Position numbers and translations under genes: made by a program
Shown: positions 3,836-62,499 of the stretch, one piece after another
How positions within the stretch are numbered: the first letter of the stretch is position 1
Layout of the letters: the number at the start of each line of letters is the position of its first letter
Assembly (NCBI GenBank): GCA_964645485.1
Contig: CAZXZO010000007.1
Coordinates: forward strand, 12,609-76,608
DNA length: 64,000 bases
Direction: 5' to 3'
DNA from: an uncultured Candidatus Poseidoniales archaeon
GTDB taxonomy: Archaea; Thermoplasmatota; Poseidoniia; Poseidoniales; Thalassarchaeaceae
The notes under the pieces: generated by a model
The model's input: only the letters and a program-made list of their open reading frames with translations
What the model was told of the DNA's origin: nothing
Database searches by the model: none

Positions 3836-4633
3836 ATGGCATTAGACCTGCCTCAGTATCAGGTTCAGATTCTAATTGCGCTTGGAACCCTCGGTGTATA
3901 CGTTGGTTGGCGAGGAGGAATGCAGAATATGGCTGGATTCTATGATATGCCAAATGCTACCAAACATCTTGCATTTGGGATTGTGCTTGGGGCGTTTAGT
4001 GGGGTACTGATTGACGGGCTTTTCATCAGCCTTGTTGCACAAACCGGGGCAGTTTTAATTGAAACCCTTGGTTTGATGATATTTCTAGGGCTGTTGCAGT
4101 CTCTTATTTTTCACTTTTTACTGTCAAGGGAAAAGGTCAGAATATTGCTTTCTTCTCCGACTTCGGGATGGACAATGGGGCTTGGAATGGGTGCACTGCA
4201 AGCCTCATATCTGATGATTAGGATGGCAGACCCAAATTGGATTGGATTTGTCTCTGGGTTCAACTGGCAAATGATATTGACGGGTTTTTGGATAACAATC
4301 ACTTTGCCAGCCATTGAAGCAGCACTCGGCTCCTGGCAAGGTGCTGCAGTAGTAGACAAAAAGCCACTGTCGGTAATGTGGCAGTCAGGTCTTTATCGGG
4401 GATTCATTCTAATCGTAGTTCTAGTAGGAATAACCGCTCAACCAATTTTATTGCTGGTGTTACCTATTGTGGCGATATATGGATTCTCCCTTGCGGAAGA
4501 AAAATGGTTACCGTCTGCATTAATCCCATCAATCAGGCAGGAATATTATCGTACAGTGCGGAAATCGTCTGAAAGAGCCCGTTTGAAGGCAGAAAGACGC
4601 CATGGGGATGTAGTAAACGAGTCAGAAGAATAA
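3836..4633 (+). CDS. Uncharacterised multi-pass membrane protein with basic C-terminal tail
   Basis: 265-aa ORF with about 7 hydrophobic segments. No family recognised. Confidence 0.7.
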   Translation: MALDLPQYQVQILIALGTLGVYVGWRGGMQNMAGFYDMPNATKHLAFGIVLGAFSGVLIDGLFISLVAQTGAVLIETLGLMIFLGLLQSLIFHFLLSREKVRILLSSPTSGWTMGLGMGALQASYLMIRMADPNWIGFVSGFNWQMILTGFWITITLPAIEAALGSWQGAAVVDKKPLSVMWQSGLYRGFILIVVLVGITAQPILLLVLPIVAIYGFSLAEEKWLPSALIPSIRQEYYRTVRKSSERARLKAERRHGDVVNESEE

Positions 4634-4686
4634 GGTACCAACCCTATCTATTACCTGATGTTAATGGAGAACCGTTATGGGGCTTA

Positions 4687-6267
4687 GTGGCGCAGAGTAG
4701 GATAATGCCGCGATGTCCATATTGTATGGCTCCCACTAGTGCGCTTAACCCAATATGCCACGGATGTGGGAGGGTAATCAGTGGGACTTCTGGCATGGGT
4801 GGGCGAGTTACCCCTTCAGGAGTGCCGAAGTACCATGGTGGTAGAGTACAGCATGGAATGAGCCCAACCGCTCGTGCACATCAAGTACAAATGAAACGCA
4901 AAAAGAAAAAATCAGGAAAACAATTCAAGAATCTTGTTTTAGTGATAATCATCGCTTTTATTTTCCTTTTCACCCCAGCTCAAGAACATGTTAACAAACA
5001 ATTGAGCATTTGGTTAGGAGATTTTTGGAAATCTATAGGACCTTCCCACGAATACCCGACCCATACTGAATATACTCTTGAAAGAACAGTAGAAATTGAG
5101 AACTTTGACTCTGGGGAAAGACAATTCCTCTACCGTTTACCAATTCCAATTCAACGAACCAATAGGGGTGTTGAAGATACTACCTTTGAAAGAAATGGGG
5201 TATCTGATATGGCAATGAATCTTCAATGGGTGAAAACTATGAAAGTGGGTTCTAGTTTTTCGCATATTGATGTTCCAGTTATGACCGTTGAATATCTAGA
5301 AGAATCATCTGCGATATCTTTGGGAGATGGATATTCATCTGTTCACTGGCCGACTTTAGGTGCAAGTGGGGATAGATGTGAATATACGAGGTGTTTAGTT
5401 TGGAAAGGTGATATTCCCGCCAATTCAATTGCAATCCTGACAGTAACGTACGAGATTTCTTCCTCAACCTATTCGTGGACGAGTGGAGAAACGATATCTA
5501 CTCCAATTACTGGCACTGCTCTAGGCATGGATATTTCTAACTCAGGCTCATTTAGTGATTTATCTAGGTCAGGGTGGGTCGGTGCCACGACTTCTTTGAT
5601 TGGAGAAGAACATCAGTGGTATGATAGAAATGAGGGGGGCTCAATTGAGAATTGGGCCGTTGATGGAGACCACCATCTCGTTAAATCTGCTGCGGATAAT
5701 ATTCAAGCAAGTCTTCCTTTGGAGCAACAAGACAACATTTTTGCTTTCTCACATGCAGCATTCATCTATGTTAGAGATAATGTCGTATATGGACCAGGAG
5801 CAGCATATCCCCCTAGAAATGGCCCAACTTGCTTAGCCCAGGGGATTGGCGATTGTGATGAACAGGCAAATGCTTGGATGAGTATTCTAAGAGTGAAAAA
5901 CATCCCAACTTGGTATGAATTTGGTGCATTAACTTCTATGAATCATGAAATTTGGGAAGCCCATGCATGGTCTGTGATTTTAATTCCTTACAATAATGCG
6001 TGGTGTGATGAAAATGGTATCGATTTGGATAGTTGCTACTTAGAAGGTTCAGTAGATGTCGTGAATAACAAATGGTTATTGCATACTCCAACCGCTTTTT
6101 CAGAATTTTTAGAACCATATAGTCCACAAGGAACAGCACCCGATGAATTCTATAAAGTGATGTCCATAAACGCATATGAGTACAATTGGGTTGAGAATTG
6201 GGATACTGTTGTTGGGCCAGATCACCTCGGTCCCACTTTTAAAGTTCCATACGTAACTGGAGAGTGA
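4687..6267 (+). CDS. Membrane-anchored transglutaminase-like (Cys-His-Asp) protein with N-terminal zinc ribbon
   Basis: GDCDEQA...LR...IP, HAW and a downstream Asp. N-terminal CPYC/CHGC, a KRKKKK patch, then one TM helix. Start may be ATG 4705. Confidence 0.8.
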   Translation: MAQSRIMPRCPYCMAPTSALNPICHGCGRVISGTSGMGGRVTPSGVPKYHGGRVQHGMSPTARAHQVQMKRKKKKSGKQFKNLVLVIIIAFIFLFTPAQEHVNKQLSIWLGDFWKSIGPSHEYPTHTEYTLERTVEIENFDSGERQFLYRLPIPIQRTNRGVEDTTFERNGVSDMAMNLQWVKTMKVGSSFSHIDVPVMTVEYLEESSAISLGDGYSSVHWPTLGASGDRCEYTRCLVWKGDIPANSIAILTVTYEISSSTYSWTSGETISTPITGTALGMDISNSGSFSDLSRSGWVGATTSLIGEEHQWYDRNEGGSIENWAVDGDHHLVKSAADNIQASLPLEQQDNIFAFSHAAFIYVRDNVVYGPGAAYPPRNGPTCLAQGIGDCDEQANAWMSILRVKNIPTWYEFGALTSMNHEIWEAHAWSVILIPYNNAWCDENGIDLDSCYLEGSVDVVNNKWLLHTPTAFSEFLEPYSPQGTAPDEFYKVMSINAYEYNWVENWDTVVGPDHLGPTFKVPYVTGE

Positions 6268-56546: not shown

Positions 56547-57797
56547 TTGTGCGCTGACCTGAGAGAGACGGATATGACATCACCATTTCATTGGCGTACA
56601 ACCTTCGAAATCCCTTCACAGAAGGCTATTGGTGAGAACATCAAAGGGATTGGATTGGAATCATTTAAGACATTGAATCCAAAGATTATGGCTACCTTGA
56701 ATAAAGTATTATTGGGACAAAGACTCACTGTGGATGAAGGGGTTCATTTGCATGATAATTGTGACCTTCCCATTCTTTCCCAAGTAGCGAACATCTTGAA
56801 AGAGAGAAGATATGGAAAAGCTGTTTTTTACAATCGTAATTTACATGTGAATCAAACAAATGTCTGTGTCTTGGCTTGCAAATTTTGTGCCTTTAGAAGA
56901 GGGAAAAATGCCTCGGACGCATATTCCCTTTCAGTTCAAGAATACCTAGATAGAATCAACCCATTTTCAGAAATTATTACTGAGGTTCATTCAGTAGGTG
57001 GATTACACCCCGAATGGGATATAGAGTACTATGAAGGATTATTTCAAGCCTTTACCAATGAGTATCCCAATATTAGTTTGAAGGCTTTGACAGCCGTGGA
57101 AATAAAACACCTAGCAGAAATTTCTAATCTATCCATATCAGAGACAATTACTCGCTTGCATAATTCAGGATTAAGTTCAATTCCTGGGGGTGGGGCTGAA
57201 ATTCTAGTTGATGAAATCAGAGATGAAATTTGCAGAGGGAAAGAATCCTCAGAAGAGTATATAGAAATCCATAAAACGGCACATGAACTCAATATCCCCA
57301 CTAATTGTACTATGCTTTTTGGGACTGTTGAGACGACTCGCCACAGAATGATTCACCTTGATAAATTGCGGGAATTACAAGATGAGACAAAGGGATTCCA
57401 ATGTTTTGTTCCCTATCCTTATTTACCGGATTCTTCAAGATTACCAGAGGCTCAGTTAGCAACCTCTAATGAAATTTTGAGAATGATAGCGATGTCTAGA
57501 ATTATGTTAGACAACATTCCCCACATCAAGGCTTATCGAATGAATATTGGAGACCATGTTTCTGCATTAGCATTACTTAGTGGGGCCGACGATATTGATG
57601 GAACAGTTAGCCATGAAGAAATAATGCATCTTGCAGGTTCAAACACACCACTGGATAAAATGGATATAGACTTAGCAACATTAGTTGAATCGGTGGGCGG
57701 AATACCAATTGAGAGAAATACTGACTATACCAAATTTAGAAATTTTAAGAGACAAGATCCACCAGATAATCAAGGTTTACCAATGATTTCTATCTAG
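56547..57797 (+). CDS. mqnE: Aminofutalosine synthase (radical SAM)
   Basis: HVNQTNVCVLACKFCAF, SIPGGGAEI, TNCTMLFG and PHIKAY (MqnE-like rather than MqnC). Start may be ATG 56574. Confidence 0.82.
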   Translation: MCADLRETDMTSPFHWRTTFEIPSQKAIGENIKGIGLESFKTLNPKIMATLNKVLLGQRLTVDEGVHLHDNCDLPILSQVANILKERRYGKAVFYNRNLHVNQTNVCVLACKFCAFRRGKNASDAYSLSVQEYLDRINPFSEIITEVHSVGGLHPEWDIEYYEGLFQAFTNEYPNISLKALTAVEIKHLAEISNLSISETITRLHNSGLSSIPGGGAEILVDEIRDEICRGKESSEEYIEIHKTAHELNIPTNCTMLFGTVETTRHRMIHLDKLRELQDETKGFQCFVPYPYLPDSSRLPEAQLATSNEILRMIAMSRIMLDNIPHIKAYRMNIGDHVSALALLSGADDIDGTVSHEEIMHLAGSNTPLDKMDIDLATLVESVGGIPIERNTDYTKFRNFKRQDPPDNQGLPMISI

Positions 57798-57813
57798 ATA
57801 GGGAGGAATTAGT

Positions 57814-58608
57814 CTGGTTAATTGGTCAAATATCATTGGTCGTGTTTCGTTCGTCAATTGTGACCCATTATTCCATAAATTACCCAAAGAGTGGTCAGTT
57901 CTCCCTGCCCCTCCAGCATGGTTAACAGGGCATTTACTCAGGAAAGATTGTCTTGTAGCGCCCATTCCAGTAGCAGATTATGCTACTAATTCTACAGAAT
58001 TAATTTTACTTCCTGATATCGGAATTGCATCTGAAGGACCAGTTGGTAGTGTGTTGTTATTCAGCAATAAAGAATTGGACCAAATTGCAGATATTGCTTT
58101 ACCTACAGATTCATCCACATCGAGTAAATTGGCATTATACCTCTTGGCGCGATTAGGAATCCACCCAGATACGGTTGATATGGGGCCAGACCTTGATGAA
58201 ATGTTATCAAAGTGTGATGCTGCATTATTGATTGGAGATAGGGCTTTAGACGAAGCACAGCGCAATCCAGAGTTAGTAAAGATTGACCTTGGTGAAGAAT
58301 GGCAGAAACAAACTGGCCTTCCAATGGTGTTTGGAGTCTTCGCTGCCCCTATTTCTGCCCCAATCAAAAATTTAGAACAAGCCCATACTGATTTATTCGA
58401 TAATGCAATCAAATTCAGAGATGATAACCAAAGGAAACAAGATGTGATTCAAGAAACGGTGATTAGGAGTGGATTTTCAAACCCAAGAATCACTAGATAT
58501 TTCAATGAAGTAACCAATATACTGACTGAAGATTCTGTTCGTGGATTAGAATTTTTCCTTTCAGAAGTTTGTGGATTAGAGACTGAAATTAAATGGTTAG
58601 ATATTTAA
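57814..58608 (+). CDS. mqnA: Chorismate dehydratase (futalosine pathway)
   Basis: Frame open from 57802: GRVSFVNCDPL, IAS.GPVGSVLL, S.TS..L, LLIGDRAL, DLGEEW...TGLPMVF.VF. The ORF track starts too late (58051); inferred CTG start at 57814. Confidence 0.85.
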   Translation: MVNWSNIIGRVSFVNCDPLFHKLPKEWSVLPAPPAWLTGHLLRKDCLVAPIPVADYATNSTELILLPDIGIASEGPVGSVLLFSNKELDQIADIALPTDSSTSSKLALYLLARLGIHPDTVDMGPDLDEMLSKCDAALLIGDRALDEAQRNPELVKIDLGEEWQKQTGLPMVFGVFAAPISAPIKNLEQAHTDLFDNAIKFRDDNQRKQDVIQETVIRSGFSNPRITRYFNEVTNILTEDSVRGLEFFLSEVCGLETEIKWLDI

Positions 58609-60977
58609 TTTGATTTGCGTCGTTTGACTTTTCTTCTTTTCTTCTTCTTTGTATCTTCTTCTACTCCAGTAGAAGGTGTGTCAGATACAGTAGATTTTGT
58701 TGAATCCTTTATCATTGAAAGTGCAGCTTTGATATCTGATTCTTTATCATCATTAGTTGATTCGGATTCATTCACAGCGGTCTCAGACGCAACTTCTTGA
58801 GCAATTTCCAAAATTGCTATATCTGCTTGGTGGAATTCCTGTGCTTCCCCGTAAGGGTCTGCAGAATCAGGGTCGTCTTTGTCCCAGTATGCACCATGGT
58901 CTGAATAATCCCATTGTTCTCCTTCAGGTGCCTCACCGCTTTGTGTGGTTGAGCCAGGTACTCTCTTTACCCTTCGAACGGATGGTTCATCTGTGGGTCG
59001 CTTTGCCGGTTGTCTCCTTTGTACAGTCGGTTCTTGGGGCCTATGTACTGGTTGTGGCCTTCCTGTTGAAGAGACAATTTCGGGTGTATTCTTTCTTTTT
59101 GTTGACCTTCTTCTAGATGTGACTTCCTTGAAATCTTCATCATCATCATCCAAATCAAATAACAACCTGTTTCTTCTCCGTGTTACTAATATTATTATTA
59201 ATGAAAATCCAACAATTATACTAATTGGAATAAAATAATTTTGTTCTATCCATGATATCGATTTCTCCAAAAAGGTTGGTTCAGGTTCTGGAGGTGCTTC
59301 TATGTTGATTGTCATAACAGGACTATTACCATGAATAGGGGATTGATAGAAAACAGTATCACCACCGTGGCTTAAGGTGAAGGAAAATGGTGAGTTCGGC
59401 GTAATTTGAGCAGCTGTATTGGATGGTGGGGAAACAGACGGGTTGAAGGTCATATTGAAGGGTCTAGGAATGTTATTGGACATGGTTATTTCAATGAACC
59501 AACGTAGTTCAATACGAGTTCTAGAATCGTGTTTTTCAGTATCAATCAATCCTAATTTAGCATCACACCTTACAGTAGTGTCAATAATTGCGGAATTGTC
59601 AATTTTGACTGCAGCGTTCCAATCTGAATTAATTTGATTTGCATTAGTTCCACTACAGAACATTCTTTCCATCTTAATTGCTTCACCTTGACTGACTACT
59701 CCATCAGATGATACAGAGGAGGAGGCTAATTCCCTAATAGGCGCACTCATGCTGGAATTCAACTGATACCTATCTTGAATAGAAATCTTGTTGCGGTTAA
59801 TTGTGATTCCAACTTGTCGGATTAAATTCGGGTCGGGGTGGATGTGACAATCACTTCCTTCAGCACATGAGAATTCAAAATCGTCACCTAAACCATCACC
59901 ATCATCATCCCCATCGTAATTGTCTGGGGTTCCATCTCCATCGATGTCTGAACCTGGTAATCCAAAGTAAGGTTGCCACGCATTCTCGCTGAACGCTGAA
60001 ATGATACCTGTATTGGTGGTAACCATGAATTCTGAGATAATTGGAGACTTTGCAAATTTTGTAACTTGATGACCTAACTCAAAAGTTTTGATGGTAGAAT
60101 AATCCGTTGCATTGAAAATTGTCATTAATTCAGTAGAAGATTCAATTAAAACCCATAATTCATCACCATTCTCTGCCCATTCTAACTGGAATGCTGTCCC
60201 TACCAAATTTAGGGTAGTGATGAATTCACCACTAGGGACAGAGCGAACTTGGAGTAGAGAATTCGTAATCCAAGCCAATTGGCTGCCATCAGGGGATAAG
60301 GAACAATCTGTAATACTGAAACCTACTTGCCAAGTTACATCAACTTCGGCAGATGATCTATTCCAAAGGAACACATTGCCATCCTTCCCACCTGTAACTA
60401 ATTGCTGTCCATTTGGTGAATGGTCTAGACAAGTTATATCTGAGGTGTGTTGCCCGTCGTAAGTTGTAATCGCATTGGTGGAGTCTTCAATATAATACTC
60501 TGAAACACCGTTGTTTTCATTAGCAGAAGCAAATATAGAAGAATTCGATAGTATCGAAATATCAGTGACTTCCTTTCCATCCTCATTTACACCTATACGT
60601 GCCCAATTTGTAGTATCGTATACAGCCATGGCTAAAGTGCTCATAAATGGGCTTTCAAGGCCTACAAGCAGAGCAGAATCATCATTAGAAAACGCCAGCG
60701 ATAAAATCTTATTTCCAATACTAATATCTTTGATAAAAGTACGATATTGAGAATTTAGTATTACCACATTAGAATTGAATGCAACTGCAATCAATCCTCC
60801 ATCATTTGAATATGTTATTTCAGAAGACCCGGATAATGAATAAGGATTTTGTAGGCTTCCACTAAAAGGATAATTTTCCTCTGTTCCTGCTTTCACCTCA
60901 GGCAAAACTGGCATGTATGAGAGCAATAATATTAGGCATATGAAAATCCCGATGAAAGTGGGTGAGGTTTTCCTCAT
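58605..60977 (-). CDS. Secreted WD40 beta-propeller protein with Ca-binding DxDGDG repeat, one TM helix and a long disordered tail
   Basis: Signal-like N-terminus, WD repeats (HTSDITCLDHSPNGQQLVTGGKDGNVFLW), DIDGDGTPDNYDGDDDGDG, TM at FIPISIIVGFSLIIILV. Confidence 0.78.
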   Translation of the reverse strand: MRKTSPTFIGIFICLILLLSYMPVLPEVKAGTEENYPFSGSLQNPYSLSGSSEITYSNDGGLIAVAFNSNVVILNSQYRTFIKDISIGNKILSLAFSNDDSALLVGLESPFMSTLAMAVYDTTNWARIGVNEDGKEVTDISILSNSSIFASANENNGVSEYYIEDSTNAITTYDGQHTSDITCLDHSPNGQQLVTGGKDGNVFLWNRSSAEVDVTWQVGFSITDCSLSPDGSQLAWITNSLLQVRSVPSGEFITTLNLVGTAFQLEWAENGDELWVLIESSTELMTIFNATDYSTIKTFELGHQVTKFAKSPIISEFMVTTNTGIISAFSENAWQPYFGLPGSDIDGDGTPDNYDGDDDGDGLGDDFEFSCAEGSDCHIHPDPNLIRQVGITINRNKISIQDRYQLNSSMSAPIRELASSSVSSDGVVSQGEAIKMERMFCSGTNANQINSDWNAAVKIDNSAIIDTTVRCDAKLGLIDTEKHDSRTRIELRWFIEITMSNNIPRPFNMTFNPSVSPPSNTAAQITPNSPFSFTLSHGGDTVFYQSPIHGNSPVMTINIEAPPEPEPTFLEKSISWIEQNYFIPISIIVGFSLIIILVTRRRNRLLFDLDDDDEDFKEVTSRRRSTKRKNTPEIVSSTGRPQPVHRPQEPTVQRRQPAKRPTDEPSVRRVKRVPGSTTQSGEAPEGEQWDYSDHGAYWDKDDPDSADPYGEAQEFHQADIAILEIAQEVASETAVNESESTNDDKESDIKAALSMIKDSTKSTVSDTPSTGVEEDTKKKKRRKVKRRKSN
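59870..59950 (-). repeat. Thrombospondin type-3-like DxDGDG Ca-binding repeat within the WD40 protein
   Basis: DIDGDGTPDNYDGDDDGDGLGDDFE. Confidence 0.7.
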
Positions 60978-61031
60978 CGGTACTGCGAATACGGATTCAG
61001 CCAAAGAATTATCCTATTAAATGTTTAATTT

Positions 61032-61526
61032 TCACTCATATTCCAAGGAGTCGTTTGTAGTCCATTCCAACAAATCAAGAGCAACTTCACATGATTCTGA
61101 AACAATAACGCAGTCATCATTCAGATATTGTTTCAATACACCTAATGACCTAGTGTCTCCAATTGCACCCAATGCTTCGGCAGCTTCGTGCCGTACAATT
61201 GAATCTTCTTCCCCATCAGCTAATCTTTCAATTAATGCATCTATAGCATAACTATCCTGCATCTGCCCTAAAACATAAGCAACCTCATGTTTCAGTAGTA
61301 CGGATGCACTTGCAAAACTGGCGACTAAAGCATCTATTGCTTCTTGGCCTCCAATATTCCTCAATGTAAAAAGGGCCCTCATACGTTGAAACATTCTTGA
61401 GTTCTCATCACACAATACAGACCGAAGTTCTCCTATTGACCTATTCTTACTCGGTGGTGCTGGGTCGACCGAGTCGTACTCTTTATCCTCGGGCGAATTC
61501 TGTTGTTCATCTTCAACTGGCATCAT
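61032..61526 (-). CDS. Half-size deoxyhypusine hydroxylase-like HEAT-repeat protein
   Basis: YDSVDPAPP, RALFTLRNIGG, LLKHEVAYVLGQMQD, VRHEAAEALGAIG and ESCEVALD; two His-Glu motifs. Confidence 0.85.
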   Translation of the reverse strand: MMPVEDEQQNSPEDKEYDSVDPAPPSKNRSIGELRSVLCDENSRMFQRMRALFTLRNIGGQEAIDALVASFASASVLLKHEVAYVLGQMQDSYAIDALIERLADGEEDSIVRHEAAEALGAIGDTRSLGVLKQYLNDDCVIVSESCEVALDLLEWTTNDSLEYE

Positions 61527-62383
61527 TATGCACCAATAAATTCTATTGATTTAGGGTCAAAACTCTGATTAATCATCCCAATTTGTTTACCTTCTGTTAG
61601 GAATTTTACAATACTTTCCCGGCCGTCATCACCAAAATCAATAGTTCTCGAATTTACATACATTTGGACGAATTTGGAATTTGTTTCTTCATCAATTCCA
61701 CGACCCCATTGCCTGGCAAATTTCAATGCTTCATCAGGATTCAAAATTGCGATTTCAATACTTTGTTTGACCCAATCTGTGATTTTGTCACACAATTCTG
61801 GCCCTAAATCCTTCCTGACAACGTTTCCACCTAATGGCAAAGGAAGTCCGTTTGTCCTTTCATTCCACCATATCCCTAAATCTAGAAGTAAATTCATGCC
61901 ATGAGATTCCCAGGTTAACTGCCCTTCATGAATAATAACTCCACTGGCAAATTCACCGGCTTGAATACGTGGCATGATTTCGTCAAAAGGAACAATAACA
62001 GTCTCAACATCACCAACAGCCATCTTCAATGCTAAATGGGCGGATGTCTTTAGTCCGGGAATCGCAATTGGTTTGGAACACGCTTCTGCTAAGGTCATAG
62101 GTTGTGAAGATACAAGCATTGGGCCGTAACCTTCACCCATGCTCGCACCACAATTCATCAAAGAATATTTATCAGAAATTTCTGGAAATGCGTGGATACT
62201 TACAGCACTAACTTCATACTCTTCAGCAATTGCTTTTTTGTTGAGAGTCTCAATATCTAATAGAACATGCTCAAATTTAAATCCTGGTGTATCAATTATT
62301 CCCGTTGTTAACGCATGGAACATAAATGCATCATCTGGGTCAGGAGAATGTCCGACTCGCACAACCCGTTCTTCATCACTCAT
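61526..62383 (-). CDS. mqnD: 1,4-dihydroxy-6-naphthoate synthase
   Basis: VGHSPDPDDAFMF, DIETLN, GASMGEGYGP, IIHEGQ and LPLPLGGN. Likely ATG at 62383. Confidence 0.92.
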   Translation of the reverse strand: MSDEERVVRVGHSPDPDDAFMFHALTTGIIDTPGFKFEHVLLDIETLNKKAIAEEYEVSAVSIHAFPEISDKYSLMNCGASMGEGYGPMLVSSQPMTLAEACSKPIAIPGLKTSAHLALKMAVGDVETVIVPFDEIMPRIQAGEFASGVIIHEGQLTWESHGMNLLLDLGIWWNERTNGLPLPLGGNVVRKDLGPELCDKITDWVKQSIEIAILNPDEALKFARQWGRGIDEETNSKFVQMYVNSRTIDFGDDGRESIVKFLTEGKQIGMINQSFDPKSIEFIGA

Positions 62384-62499
62384 GTGATGGGGCGACAGCA
62401 ATTGATTTGTGAACTTTATGCATAAATTATCTGAGAATTTTAACCACTCAATGAACAGGCTCAAAGACTTGACTCCCCCACCCATGTTTAGGTAGTATC

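What the first reader, a model, noticed from the sequence alone, without database searches (positions are those of the whole stretch)
61032..61526. Half-size DOHH-like protein: candidate homodimeric archaeal deoxyhypusine hydroxylase or pre-duplication ancestor
Seen: a complete 164-aa ORF whose ATG overlaps the mqnD stop (TAATG), so no N-terminal half is missing upstream. It has two His-Glu motifs (KHEVAYVLGQ at 61284-61289; RHEAAEALGAIG at 61185-61190). Established: eukaryotic DOHH is an internal duplication of about 300 aa with four HE motifs. As I recall the human structure, each iron is bound by two His from one half and a Glu from the other half. No DOHH orthologue is generally recognised in archaea, although some archaea make hypusine. 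From recalled human sequence, this protein mixes both halves: RALFTLR, LLKHE.AY.LGQMQD and VRHEA.EALGAIG resemble the N-half, while Y.SVDPAPP, DE..F.R, RN.GG and ESCEVALD resemble the linker and C-half. Inference: a symmetric homodimer could rebuild the diiron site, making this either the missing aIF5A hydroxylase in this lineage or the single unit from which DOHH arose. Coupling to mqnD leaves open a different substrate, such as a quinone-pathway hydroxylation.
Basis: partly seen in the sequence, partly recalled or inferred. Interest (0 to 1): 0.88.

Follow-up and report, generated by a model that had tools for sequence, protein, structure and literature searches.

The report
Half-size archaeal deoxyhypusine hydroxylase homologue
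This marine archaeon carries a well-conserved gene for exactly one lobe of the two-lobed iron enzyme that eukaryotes use to finish the hypusine modification of translation factor 5A. Published reviews say archaea lack this enzyme, and two copies are predicted to pair up and rebuild the active site.

Summary
Window 61032-61526 (-) is a complete 164-aa ORF whose ATG overlaps the mqnD stop. It matches human DOHH (4D4Z) at E=3e-70, aligning to both lobes, far above generic HEAT proteins. Both His-Glu pairs (H80-E81, H113-E114), G87 and the SVDPAPP motif are invariant in 22 relatives.

A homodimer is predicted: ipSAE 0.88 against 0.01 for the best control. The mark was reached by 20 of 30 solved pairs and 1 of 23 single chains. 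The pass could come from memory of the human structure.

The genome has deoxyhypusine synthase and an aIF5A with the target-lysine loop.

The same half-size gene is found in 157 of 201 Poseidoniales genomes. It also occurs in at least eight other Thermoplasmatota families, where it is not next to mqnD. It occurs in genomes with no MqnA/MqnD, has been cleanly lost beside an intact mqn cluster, and is found only in families that carry haem-copper oxidase. The mqnD coupling is therefore a lineage-specific gene arrangement.

Trees join these proteins with both eukaryotic lobes (100/99). They are not nested in crown eukaryotic C-lobes. Whether they branched before the duplication is unresolved, though that tree had the best likelihood.

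No biochemistry exists. The scan has noted this protein family on other genomes (74 notes).

The parts
61032..61526 (-). Half-size DOHH homologue: 164 aa (P0001), four HEAT hairpins, stop codon included
   Evidence: ORF and translation. Human DOHH 4D4Z at E=3e-70 on both lobes. AF2 model pLDDT 88.9 with eight helices. Best PDB fold match 4d4z, E 2.6e-10, TMq 0.79.
61452..61472 (-). S19-P25 'SVDPAPP' clasp motif, the counterpart of the inter-lobe linker of eukaryotic DOHH
   Evidence: Aligns to human YLSVDPAPP. S19, D21, P22 and A23 are invariant in 22 relatives. Residues 17-24 lie in the predicted dimer interface and touch 148/152 of the partner.
61284..61289 (-). His80-Glu81, first His-Glu motif (counterpart of human H56-E57 / H207-E208)
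   Evidence: Alignment. Invariant. Roles of the human residues from PMC9117371.
61185..61190 (-). His113-Glu114, second His-Glu motif (counterpart of human H89-E90 / H240-E241)
   Evidence: Alignment. Invariant. H113 lies at the predicted dimer interface.
61526..62485 (-). MqnD-like gene (VitK2_biosynth) directly upstream; its stop overlaps the start of the DOHH half by one base
   Evidence: Pfam PF02621 at 2.3e-67. The adjacency is kept in both large Poseidoniales families and inverted as a unit between them.
56547..58608 (+). MqnC-like radical SAM gene and MqnA-like gene: the rest of the local futalosine cluster (context, not part of the enzyme)
   Evidence: Pfam hits; synteny.

Best explanation
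The gene encodes a single-lobe deoxyhypusine hydroxylase. Each 164-aa chain is four HEAT hairpins carrying two His-Glu motifs. Two chains are inferred to associate about a two-fold axis, each clasped to the other by its N-terminal SVDPAPP segment. This would bring together four His and four Glu and rebuild the diiron site that the eukaryotic enzyme forms between its two covalently linked lobes. [quoted passage not shown]

Shown here: homology specific to DOHH, conservation of the ligand and substrate-binding residues, the fold, the presence of the substrate pathway, and the distribution. Inferred: dimerisation (model only), iron binding, and the substrate.

The overlap with mqnD is a Poseidoniales-specific operon arrangement without a required functional link. 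The gene is dispensable, as LIA1 is in yeast, and has been lost cleanly in several genera.
For: Sequence and fold:
- Specific homology: 4D4Z at E=3e-70, with 110 bits to the N lobe and 127 bits to the linker plus C lobe. After Marine Group II relatives, the next best database hits are eukaryotic DOHH at 42-54% identity.
- Core identity is 46.7% to C lobes and 42.5% to N lobes. That is as close as eukaryotic C lobes are to each other (47.3%) and closer than N lobes are to C lobes (37.1%).
- The best PDB fold match is 4d4z.
- H80, E81, G87, H113 and E114 are invariant in 22 sequences spanning three families. They are the counterparts of human iron ligands H56/H207, H89/H240 and E90/E241, and of substrate-binding E57/E208 and G214 (PMC9117371).

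Dimer:
- ipSAE 0.88 in three runs, best control 0.01. The mark was reached by 20 of 30 solved pairs and 1 of 23 single chains.
- At least 71% of contacts agree between runs, and partner pLDDT is at least 87.
- The interface includes 17-24, 87-90, 109-113 and 140-155.

Substrate pathway and distribution:
- The genome has DHS (308 bits) and an aIF5A with the KPGKHGSAK loop 3 kb upstream of the window.
- Strong conservation: found in 157 of 201 genomes of the order and in other Thermoplasmatota families (f29 17/18, f10 7/9, f26 3/3).
- It was found only in families that also carry COX1. It was not found in the families without COX1 (0/12, 0/44, 0/24); the single weak match in a fourth (1/43, E=3e-9, 32% identity) is not counted. 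This fits an O2-dependent enzyme.
Against: No experiment exists for any member. The protein has four HEAT hairpins, not the eight that define the known enzyme. The dimer prediction may simply recall the solved human pseudo-dimer. The gene is missing from high-quality genomes of the same family (G002 98% complete, G005 96%), so it is not essential. No hypusine measurement exists for these uncultured archaea. The tight, conserved coupling to mqnD, including one in-frame MqnD fusion, is not explained by this function.
Confidence: 0.72

Rival explanations
1. The protein works with MqnD in the futalosine (menaquinone) pathway. It might act as an O2-dependent hydroxylase or an accessory subunit acting on a naphthoate or quinone intermediate, not on aIF5A.
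For: Start and stop overlap with mqnD. The MqnD then DOHH-half order is kept in every locus examined from the two large families, and the pair is inverted as a unit between them. One genome (G015) has an in-frame MqnD-DOHH-half fusion with no stop or start at the junction.
Against: The DOHH half is present in genomes with no VitK2_biosynth gene at all: f2 G004 (93% complete), G001, G196, and f29 G440. In 20 loci from other Thermoplasmatota families, no Mqn gene lies within 3 kb. MqnD is present without the DOHH half in G002 (98% complete), G005 (96%) and others, and there the gene is cleanly absent from an otherwise intact cluster. The residues that bind the deoxyhypusine side chain in the human enzyme are invariant. 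To my knowledge, no hydroxylation step is known in the futalosine route.
Confidence: 0.06
2. Rival view of the origin, with the same function. The archaeal gene is an ancient truncated copy of the linker plus C lobe of a eukaryotic DOHH, taken up by a Thermoplasmatota ancestor. It is not a form that predates the eukaryotic duplication.
For: Free ML trees put MGII (with or without f29) beside the eukaryotic C lobes in all three data sets. The N-terminal SVDPAPP and the C-terminal 'LEY' tail are shared with C lobes only. HMM scores are higher to C lobes (160 against 131 bits). The close type was found here only in one archaeal phylum, and patchily.
Against: Support for the C-lobe grouping is weak (58/72, 63/63, 49/41). 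With wider archaeal sampling, the tree that holds N and C lobes together, with archaea outside, has a log-likelihood 9.8 higher than the free tree (p-AU 0.63). The crown C-lobe clade excludes the archaea (95/81). A second archaeal group (f10, f18, f26, f28, f48) branches outside N lobes, C lobes and MGII together (92/76). Other archaeal phyla carry more distant half-size relatives.
Confidence: 0.3
3. It is a HEAT-repeat protein that kept the DOHH-like residues but has another role. It might hydroxylate a different protein or small molecule, or act as an iron-binding or scaffold protein.
For: Only repeat-level Pfam families match (HEAT_PBS, HEAT_2). There are weak sub-threshold NCBIfam hits to NblB and CpcE. 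The gene is dispensable in some lineages.
Against: About 47% identity to a single-substrate enzyme, with all catalytic and substrate-binding residues invariant. The NCBIfam scores are 27 bits against cut-offs of 300 or more. The protein is in a 100/99 clade with the eukaryotic enzyme.
Confidence: 0.12

Closest known systems
Eukaryotic deoxyhypusine hydroxylase (human DOHH, PDB 4D4Z/4D50; yeast Lia1; EC 1.14.99.29)
   Same: Same HEAT-hairpin fold. About 43-47% identity to either lobe. Same two His-Glu motifs per lobe. Same Gly and Glu that bind the deoxyhypusine side chain. Same SVDPAPP segment and the same C-terminal tail as the C lobe. The substrate pathway (DHS, IF5A) is present. Dispensable, as in yeast.
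   Different: One lobe (four hairpins, about 160 aa) instead of two fused lobes (eight hairpins, about 300 aa). The diiron site must therefore form between two identical chains, with two clasps instead of one linker. It is found in archaea, where the literature says the enzyme is missing. In Poseidoniales it sits in an operon with mqnD.
Half-size 'two-VRHE' HEAT proteins of Nitrososphaerota (169 aa) and DPANN-like archaea (117-168 aa; L010/P0390)
   Same: Also single-lobe, about 130-170 aa, with two His-Glu motifs and a Gly-Gln after the first. Some are auto-named deoxyhypusine monooxygenase by JGI.
   Different: Only about 30% identical to the window's protein. They lack the SVDPAPP clasp and are separated by a long stem (1.0-2.8 changes per site, 100/98-99) from the clade of Thermoplasmatota plus eukaryotes.
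PBS-lyase HEAT-like proteins (CpcE, NblB) and small archaeal HEAT proteins (MTH187, 1TE4)
   Same: Same repeat type (Pfam HEAT_PBS).
   Different: Scores are far below family cut-offs (27.6 against 300). 1te4 matches at E=1e-4 and CpcE at 1.5e-4, against 3e-70 for DOHH. These proteins have no conserved His-Glu pairs.

Membership tests
Deoxyhypusine hydroxylase (EC 1.14.99.29) | Sequence homology specific to DOHH rather than to generic HEAT repeats | tested here: met
   4D4Z at E=3e-70, covering both lobes. Eukaryotic DOHH are the best non-archaeal hits. The clade with eukaryotic lobes has 100/99 support.
Deoxyhypusine hydroxylase (EC 1.14.99.29) | Two His-Glu motifs per lobe that anchor the diiron centre (human H56-E57, H89-E90 / H207-E208, H240-E241) | tested here: met
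   H80-E81 and H113-E114 align to them and are invariant in 22 relatives. Roles are taken from PMC9117371.
Deoxyhypusine hydroxylase (EC 1.14.99.29) | Residues that bind the deoxyhypusine side chain (human E57/E208, G214 and its N-lobe counterpart) | tested here: met
   E81 and G87 are invariant.
Deoxyhypusine hydroxylase (EC 1.14.99.29) | Eight HEAT hairpins in two lobes on one chain | tested here: not met
   164 aa with eight helices, that is four hairpins. There is a single copy in the genome. All 40+ archaeal loci examined are single-lobe. A homodimer is predicted instead: ipSAE 0.88 against 0.01 for the best control. The mark was reached by 20 of 30 solved pairs and 1 of 23 single chains.
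Deoxyhypusine hydroxylase (EC 1.14.99.29) | Fold like the solved enzyme | tested here: met
   Foldseek top hit 4d4z_B: E 2.6e-10, TMq 0.79, rmsd 2.4 Å, 49% identity. Atlas TM 0.84-0.86 to eukaryotic DOHH models.
Deoxyhypusine hydroxylase (EC 1.14.99.29) | Substrate available: deoxyhypusine synthase, and IF5A with the target lysine | tested here: met
   DHS at 308 bits, plus a 140-bit paralogue. aIF5A at 104 bits with the KPGKHGSAK loop.
Deoxyhypusine hydroxylase (EC 1.14.99.29) | Two Fe per active unit, O2 activation, and hydroxylation of deoxyhypusine-IF5A | not testable with these tools
   Only indirect evidence: the gene was found only in families that also have haem-copper oxidase.
Futalosine-pathway (Mqn) component | Co-occurs with the pathway genes | tested here: not met
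   Present without any PF02621 gene in G004, G001, G196 and G440. Absent beside an intact mqn cluster in G002, G005, G045 and G049. Not linked to mqn genes outside Poseidoniales.
Phycobilin lyase / NblB HEAT proteins | Reaches the curated family score | tested here: not met
   NblB 27.6 bits against a cut-off of 300; CpcE 26.4 against 330.

The most novel reading that the evidence does not exclude
The single-lobe, homodimeric enzyme of Thermoplasmatota represents the ancestral state of deoxyhypusine hydroxylase. The eukaryotic two-lobed enzyme would then have arisen from such an archaeal gene by tandem duplication and fusion, keeping one SVDPAPP clasp as the inter-lobe linker. On this reading hypusine, not only deoxyhypusine, predates eukaryotes, and a 'eukaryote-only' enzyme has an archaeal origin.
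Probability: 0.4. Interest if true: 0.85.

Novelty: new variant of a known kind. Interest (0 to 1): 0.74.

Why it matters
The hypusine literature has long stated that archaea have deoxyhypusine synthase but no DOHH homologue, although some archaea contain hypusine (PMC5178350, PMC7773846). This gene gives a concrete and abundant candidate that can be tested with standard assays, at least for aerobic Thermoplasmatota. It would also be a natural 'split' version of an unusual diiron enzyme whose site lies between two pseudo-symmetric lobes. That makes it useful for asking how the site is assembled and how the eukaryotic enzyme evolved. It does not by itself explain hypusine in Sulfolobus and its relatives. 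The more distant Nitrososphaerota-type family seen here may bear on that question.

Tried and rejected
Its 'Acidobacteria' hit (L009) is a fungal-like, intron-containing full-length DOHH on a contaminant contig, not a bacterial gene.
- PF01287 missed aIF5A. TIGR00037 found it.
- I tried to name the eukaryotic representatives used in the trees. The look-up returned no organism names, so I could not ask whether a particular eukaryotic group is closest.
- The long 'open frames' of 285-666 aa in GC-rich genomes looked like possible fusions or two-lobed forms. They are stop-free upstream DNA; every gene is single-lobe.
- I could not compare the predicted dimer with the intramolecular lobe packing of 4D4Z, because no coordinates were available.
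- Archaeal phyla other than Thermoplasmatota (for example Asgard) could not be searched for the close type, because no genome handle was available there.
- PMC1324997 (the DOHH cloning paper) is not held.

Full report
**The feature.** Window 61032-61526 (-) is a complete 164-aa ORF (P0001). Its ATG shares one base with the TAA of the upstream gene at 61526-62485, which is a VitK2_biosynth/MqnD protein (PF02621, 2.3e-67). The genome (1.94 Mb, 55 contigs, about 82% complete) holds no second copy and no missing half. Pfam sees only repeat-level families, HEAT_PBS and HEAT_2. NCBIfam gives only far sub-threshold hits to NblB and CpcE.

**What it resembles.**
- Against all PDB sequences, the best match by far is human deoxyhypusine hydroxylase 4D4Z (E=3e-70). 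The query aligns twice: to the N lobe (110 bits) and to the linker plus C lobe (127 bits).
- An AlphaFold2 model (pLDDT 88.9, eight helices) finds 4d4z as its best fold match (E 2.6e-10, TMq 0.79, 49% identity), ahead of designed alphaRep proteins.
- The human iron ligands are H56, H89, E90, H207, H240 and E241. The substrate-binding residues are E57, E208 and G214 (review PMC9117371).
- Their counterparts here are H80, E81, G87, H113 and E114. All are invariant in an alignment of 22 relatives from three families, as are S19, D21, P22 and A23 of the SVDPAPP motif.

**Family and distribution.**
- The large protein database holds thousands of relatives. The closest are 147-163-aa proteins at 63-89% identity, from MAGs labelled Euryarchaeota or Thalassarchaeaceae. 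Next come eukaryotic DOHH at 42-54%.
- JGI auto-names some of these archaeal proteins deoxyhypusine monooxygenase, as NCBI does for one relative in another Thermoplasmatota family.
- In species-representative genomes, the half-size gene was found in 157 of 201 genomes of the order. It occurs in all three families, always as a frame of roughly 150-210 aa apart from contig-end or interrupted fragments, the G015 MqnD fusion and the G153 read-through frame.
- It is not confined to that order. In 351 genomes of the phylum it was also found in f29 (17/18, 52-58% identity), f10 (7/9), f26 (3/3), f28 (2/6), f18, f33, f34 and f48.
- All of these are single-lobe genes with [ST]VDPAP, LLRHExAYxLGQ and MVRHE motifs. 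The long 'open frames' reported there are GC-rich stop-free upstream DNA.
- A look-up labels them Thermoplasmatota or Thermoplasmata MAGs.
- A more distant half-size family with two VRHE motifs exists in Nitrososphaerota (169 aa) and DPANN-like archaea.

**Is it tied to menaquinone synthesis?** Within Poseidoniales, MqnD followed by the DOHH half is universal in the loci I read. The pair is inverted as a unit between the two large families. One genome (G015) has an in-frame fusion of the two. The link is nevertheless not functional in any required sense.
- f2 genomes (G004, 93% complete; G001), G196, and an f29 genome carry the DOHH half but no VitK2_biosynth gene at all.
- Twenty loci from other families have no Mqn, DHS or aIF5A gene within 3 kb. 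Their neighbours are unrelated housekeeping genes.
- MqnD is present without the DOHH half in G002 (98% complete), G005 (96%) and others. In those genomes the gene is cleanly missing from an otherwise intact PriS-MqnD-(WD40)-MqnA-MqnC cluster, with no remnant.

Two overlapping genes cannot easily be separated, which is enough to explain the conserved pairing.

**Support for the hypusine role.**
- The genome has a canonical deoxyhypusine synthase (308 bits) plus a paralogue.
- It has an aIF5A 3 kb upstream of the window with the KPGKHGSAK loop.
- Every family in which the DOHH half was found also has haem-copper oxidase. The large families without that oxidase (f5, f6, f16, f19) lack the gene, apart from one weak f16 match (E=3e-9, 32% identity) that I do not count. 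This fits an O2-dependent enzyme, though kinship limits the weight of this pattern.
- Loss in some genera fits the known dispensability of hydroxylation in yeast (PMC5178350).

**Dimer.**
- Two copies with two Fe gave ipSAE 0.88 in all three runs, against 0.01 for the best of three controls.
- The mark was reached by 20 of 30 proteins solved as pairs and by 1 of 23 solved as single chains.
- The runs agree in at least 71% of contacts, and partner pLDDT is at least 87.
- The symmetric interface holds residues 17-24 (the SVDPAPP clasp, touching 148 and 152 of the partner), 87-90, 109-113 and 140-155.
- H113 lies next to residue 110 of the other chain, near the axis.
- Because the human pseudo-dimer is solved, this pass may reflect likeness to it rather than independent evidence.

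**Origin.**
- Core identity is 46.7% to eukaryotic C lobes and 42.5% to N lobes. N and C lobes share 37.1% with each other. The archaeal protein therefore sits 'between' the lobes.
- Trees (LG+C20 PMSF) place Thermoplasmatota proteins and both eukaryotic lobes in one clade (100/98-99), on a long stem from the Nitrososphaerota/DPANN-like type.
- Free searches put the Poseidoniales group beside C lobes, but weakly (58/72; 63/63 on core columns; 49/41 with wider sampling).
- With wider sampling, Poseidoniales is sister to f29 (94/89). Crown C lobes exclude the archaea (95/81). A second archaeal group branches outside N lobes, C lobes and Poseidoniales together (92/76).
- AU tests reject nothing. 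Holding N and C lobes together gave p 0.21 in the first data set. In the wider set that tree had a log-likelihood 9.8 higher than the free tree (p 0.63).
- Holding all archaea together was also slightly better than the free tree (p 0.53).
- A recent truncated transfer from a crown eukaryote is therefore not supported. Both a pre-duplication position and an ancient C-lobe origin remain open.

**Literature and earlier notes.** Papers in the library state that no DOHH homologue has been identified in archaea (PMC5178350 from 2016 and PMC7773846 from 2020). No held paper links deoxyhypusine with Marine Group II. This scan has already noted the same family on other genomes (74 notes), including half-size relatives in ammonia oxidisers.

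**Verdict.** This is a real, strongly conserved, single-lobe homologue of DOHH. It is most likely a homodimeric aIF5A deoxyhypusine hydroxylase of aerobic Thermoplasmatota. Function, metal content and oligomeric state all await experiment.

Noticed in passing
L025 (G015:C2), - strand, 3986-5374: In one 96%-complete genome, MqnD and the DOHH half form a single 463-aa open frame, with no stop and no start codon at the junction. This is either a natural fusion or an assembly error. In G153 the two genes are in the same frame, separated by one stop followed by ATG.
   Followed up: partly
L009 5412-6480 (contig MNJR01000114.1, labelled Acidobacteria MAG): A full-length two-lobed DOHH split into three pieces, as if by introns, and fungal-like in sequence. 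The contig is probably eukaryotic contamination of a soil MAG.
   Followed up: partly
L010 5926-6429 (+) and proteins P0390-P0508: A separate half-size HEAT family with two VRHE[AS]A motifs in Nitrososphaerota (169 aa, ending RAPRP) and DPANN-like archaea. It is about 30% identical to the window's protein and may bear on hypusine formation in other archaeal phyla.
   Followed up: partly
G000 C2:78558-79466 (L001) and C18:18567-19466 (L002): There are two deoxyhypusine-synthase homologues per genome (308 and 140 bits here). The same pair was seen in all five other Thermoplasmatota genomes checked, whether or not they carry the DOHH half. The role of the second copy is unknown.
   Followed up: no
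window 57800-58608 (+): The MqnA-like gene is listed from a GTG at 58051 (185 aa), but its frame stays open and MqnA-like for about 80 more codons upstream with no ATG, GTG or TTG. It may use an unusual start codon.
   Followed up: partly
window 58605-61004 (-): A 799-aa protein with a WD40 beta-propeller, a membrane span and a lysine/arginine-rich tail sits inside the mqn cluster. It is present in some lineages and absent in others (for example L007, L024).
   Followed up: no
tree rows eukN_P0270 and eukN_P0368: The N lobes of two eukaryotic DOHH representatives group inside the C-lobe clade (91/80). This hints at a lineage-specific re-duplication or gene conversion, or it may be a long-branch artefact.
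   Followed up: no
L057 2152-2958 (+): In one non-Poseidoniales genome, the gene just upstream of the DOHH half is a VIT1-family iron transporter. This is a single case.
   Followed up: no
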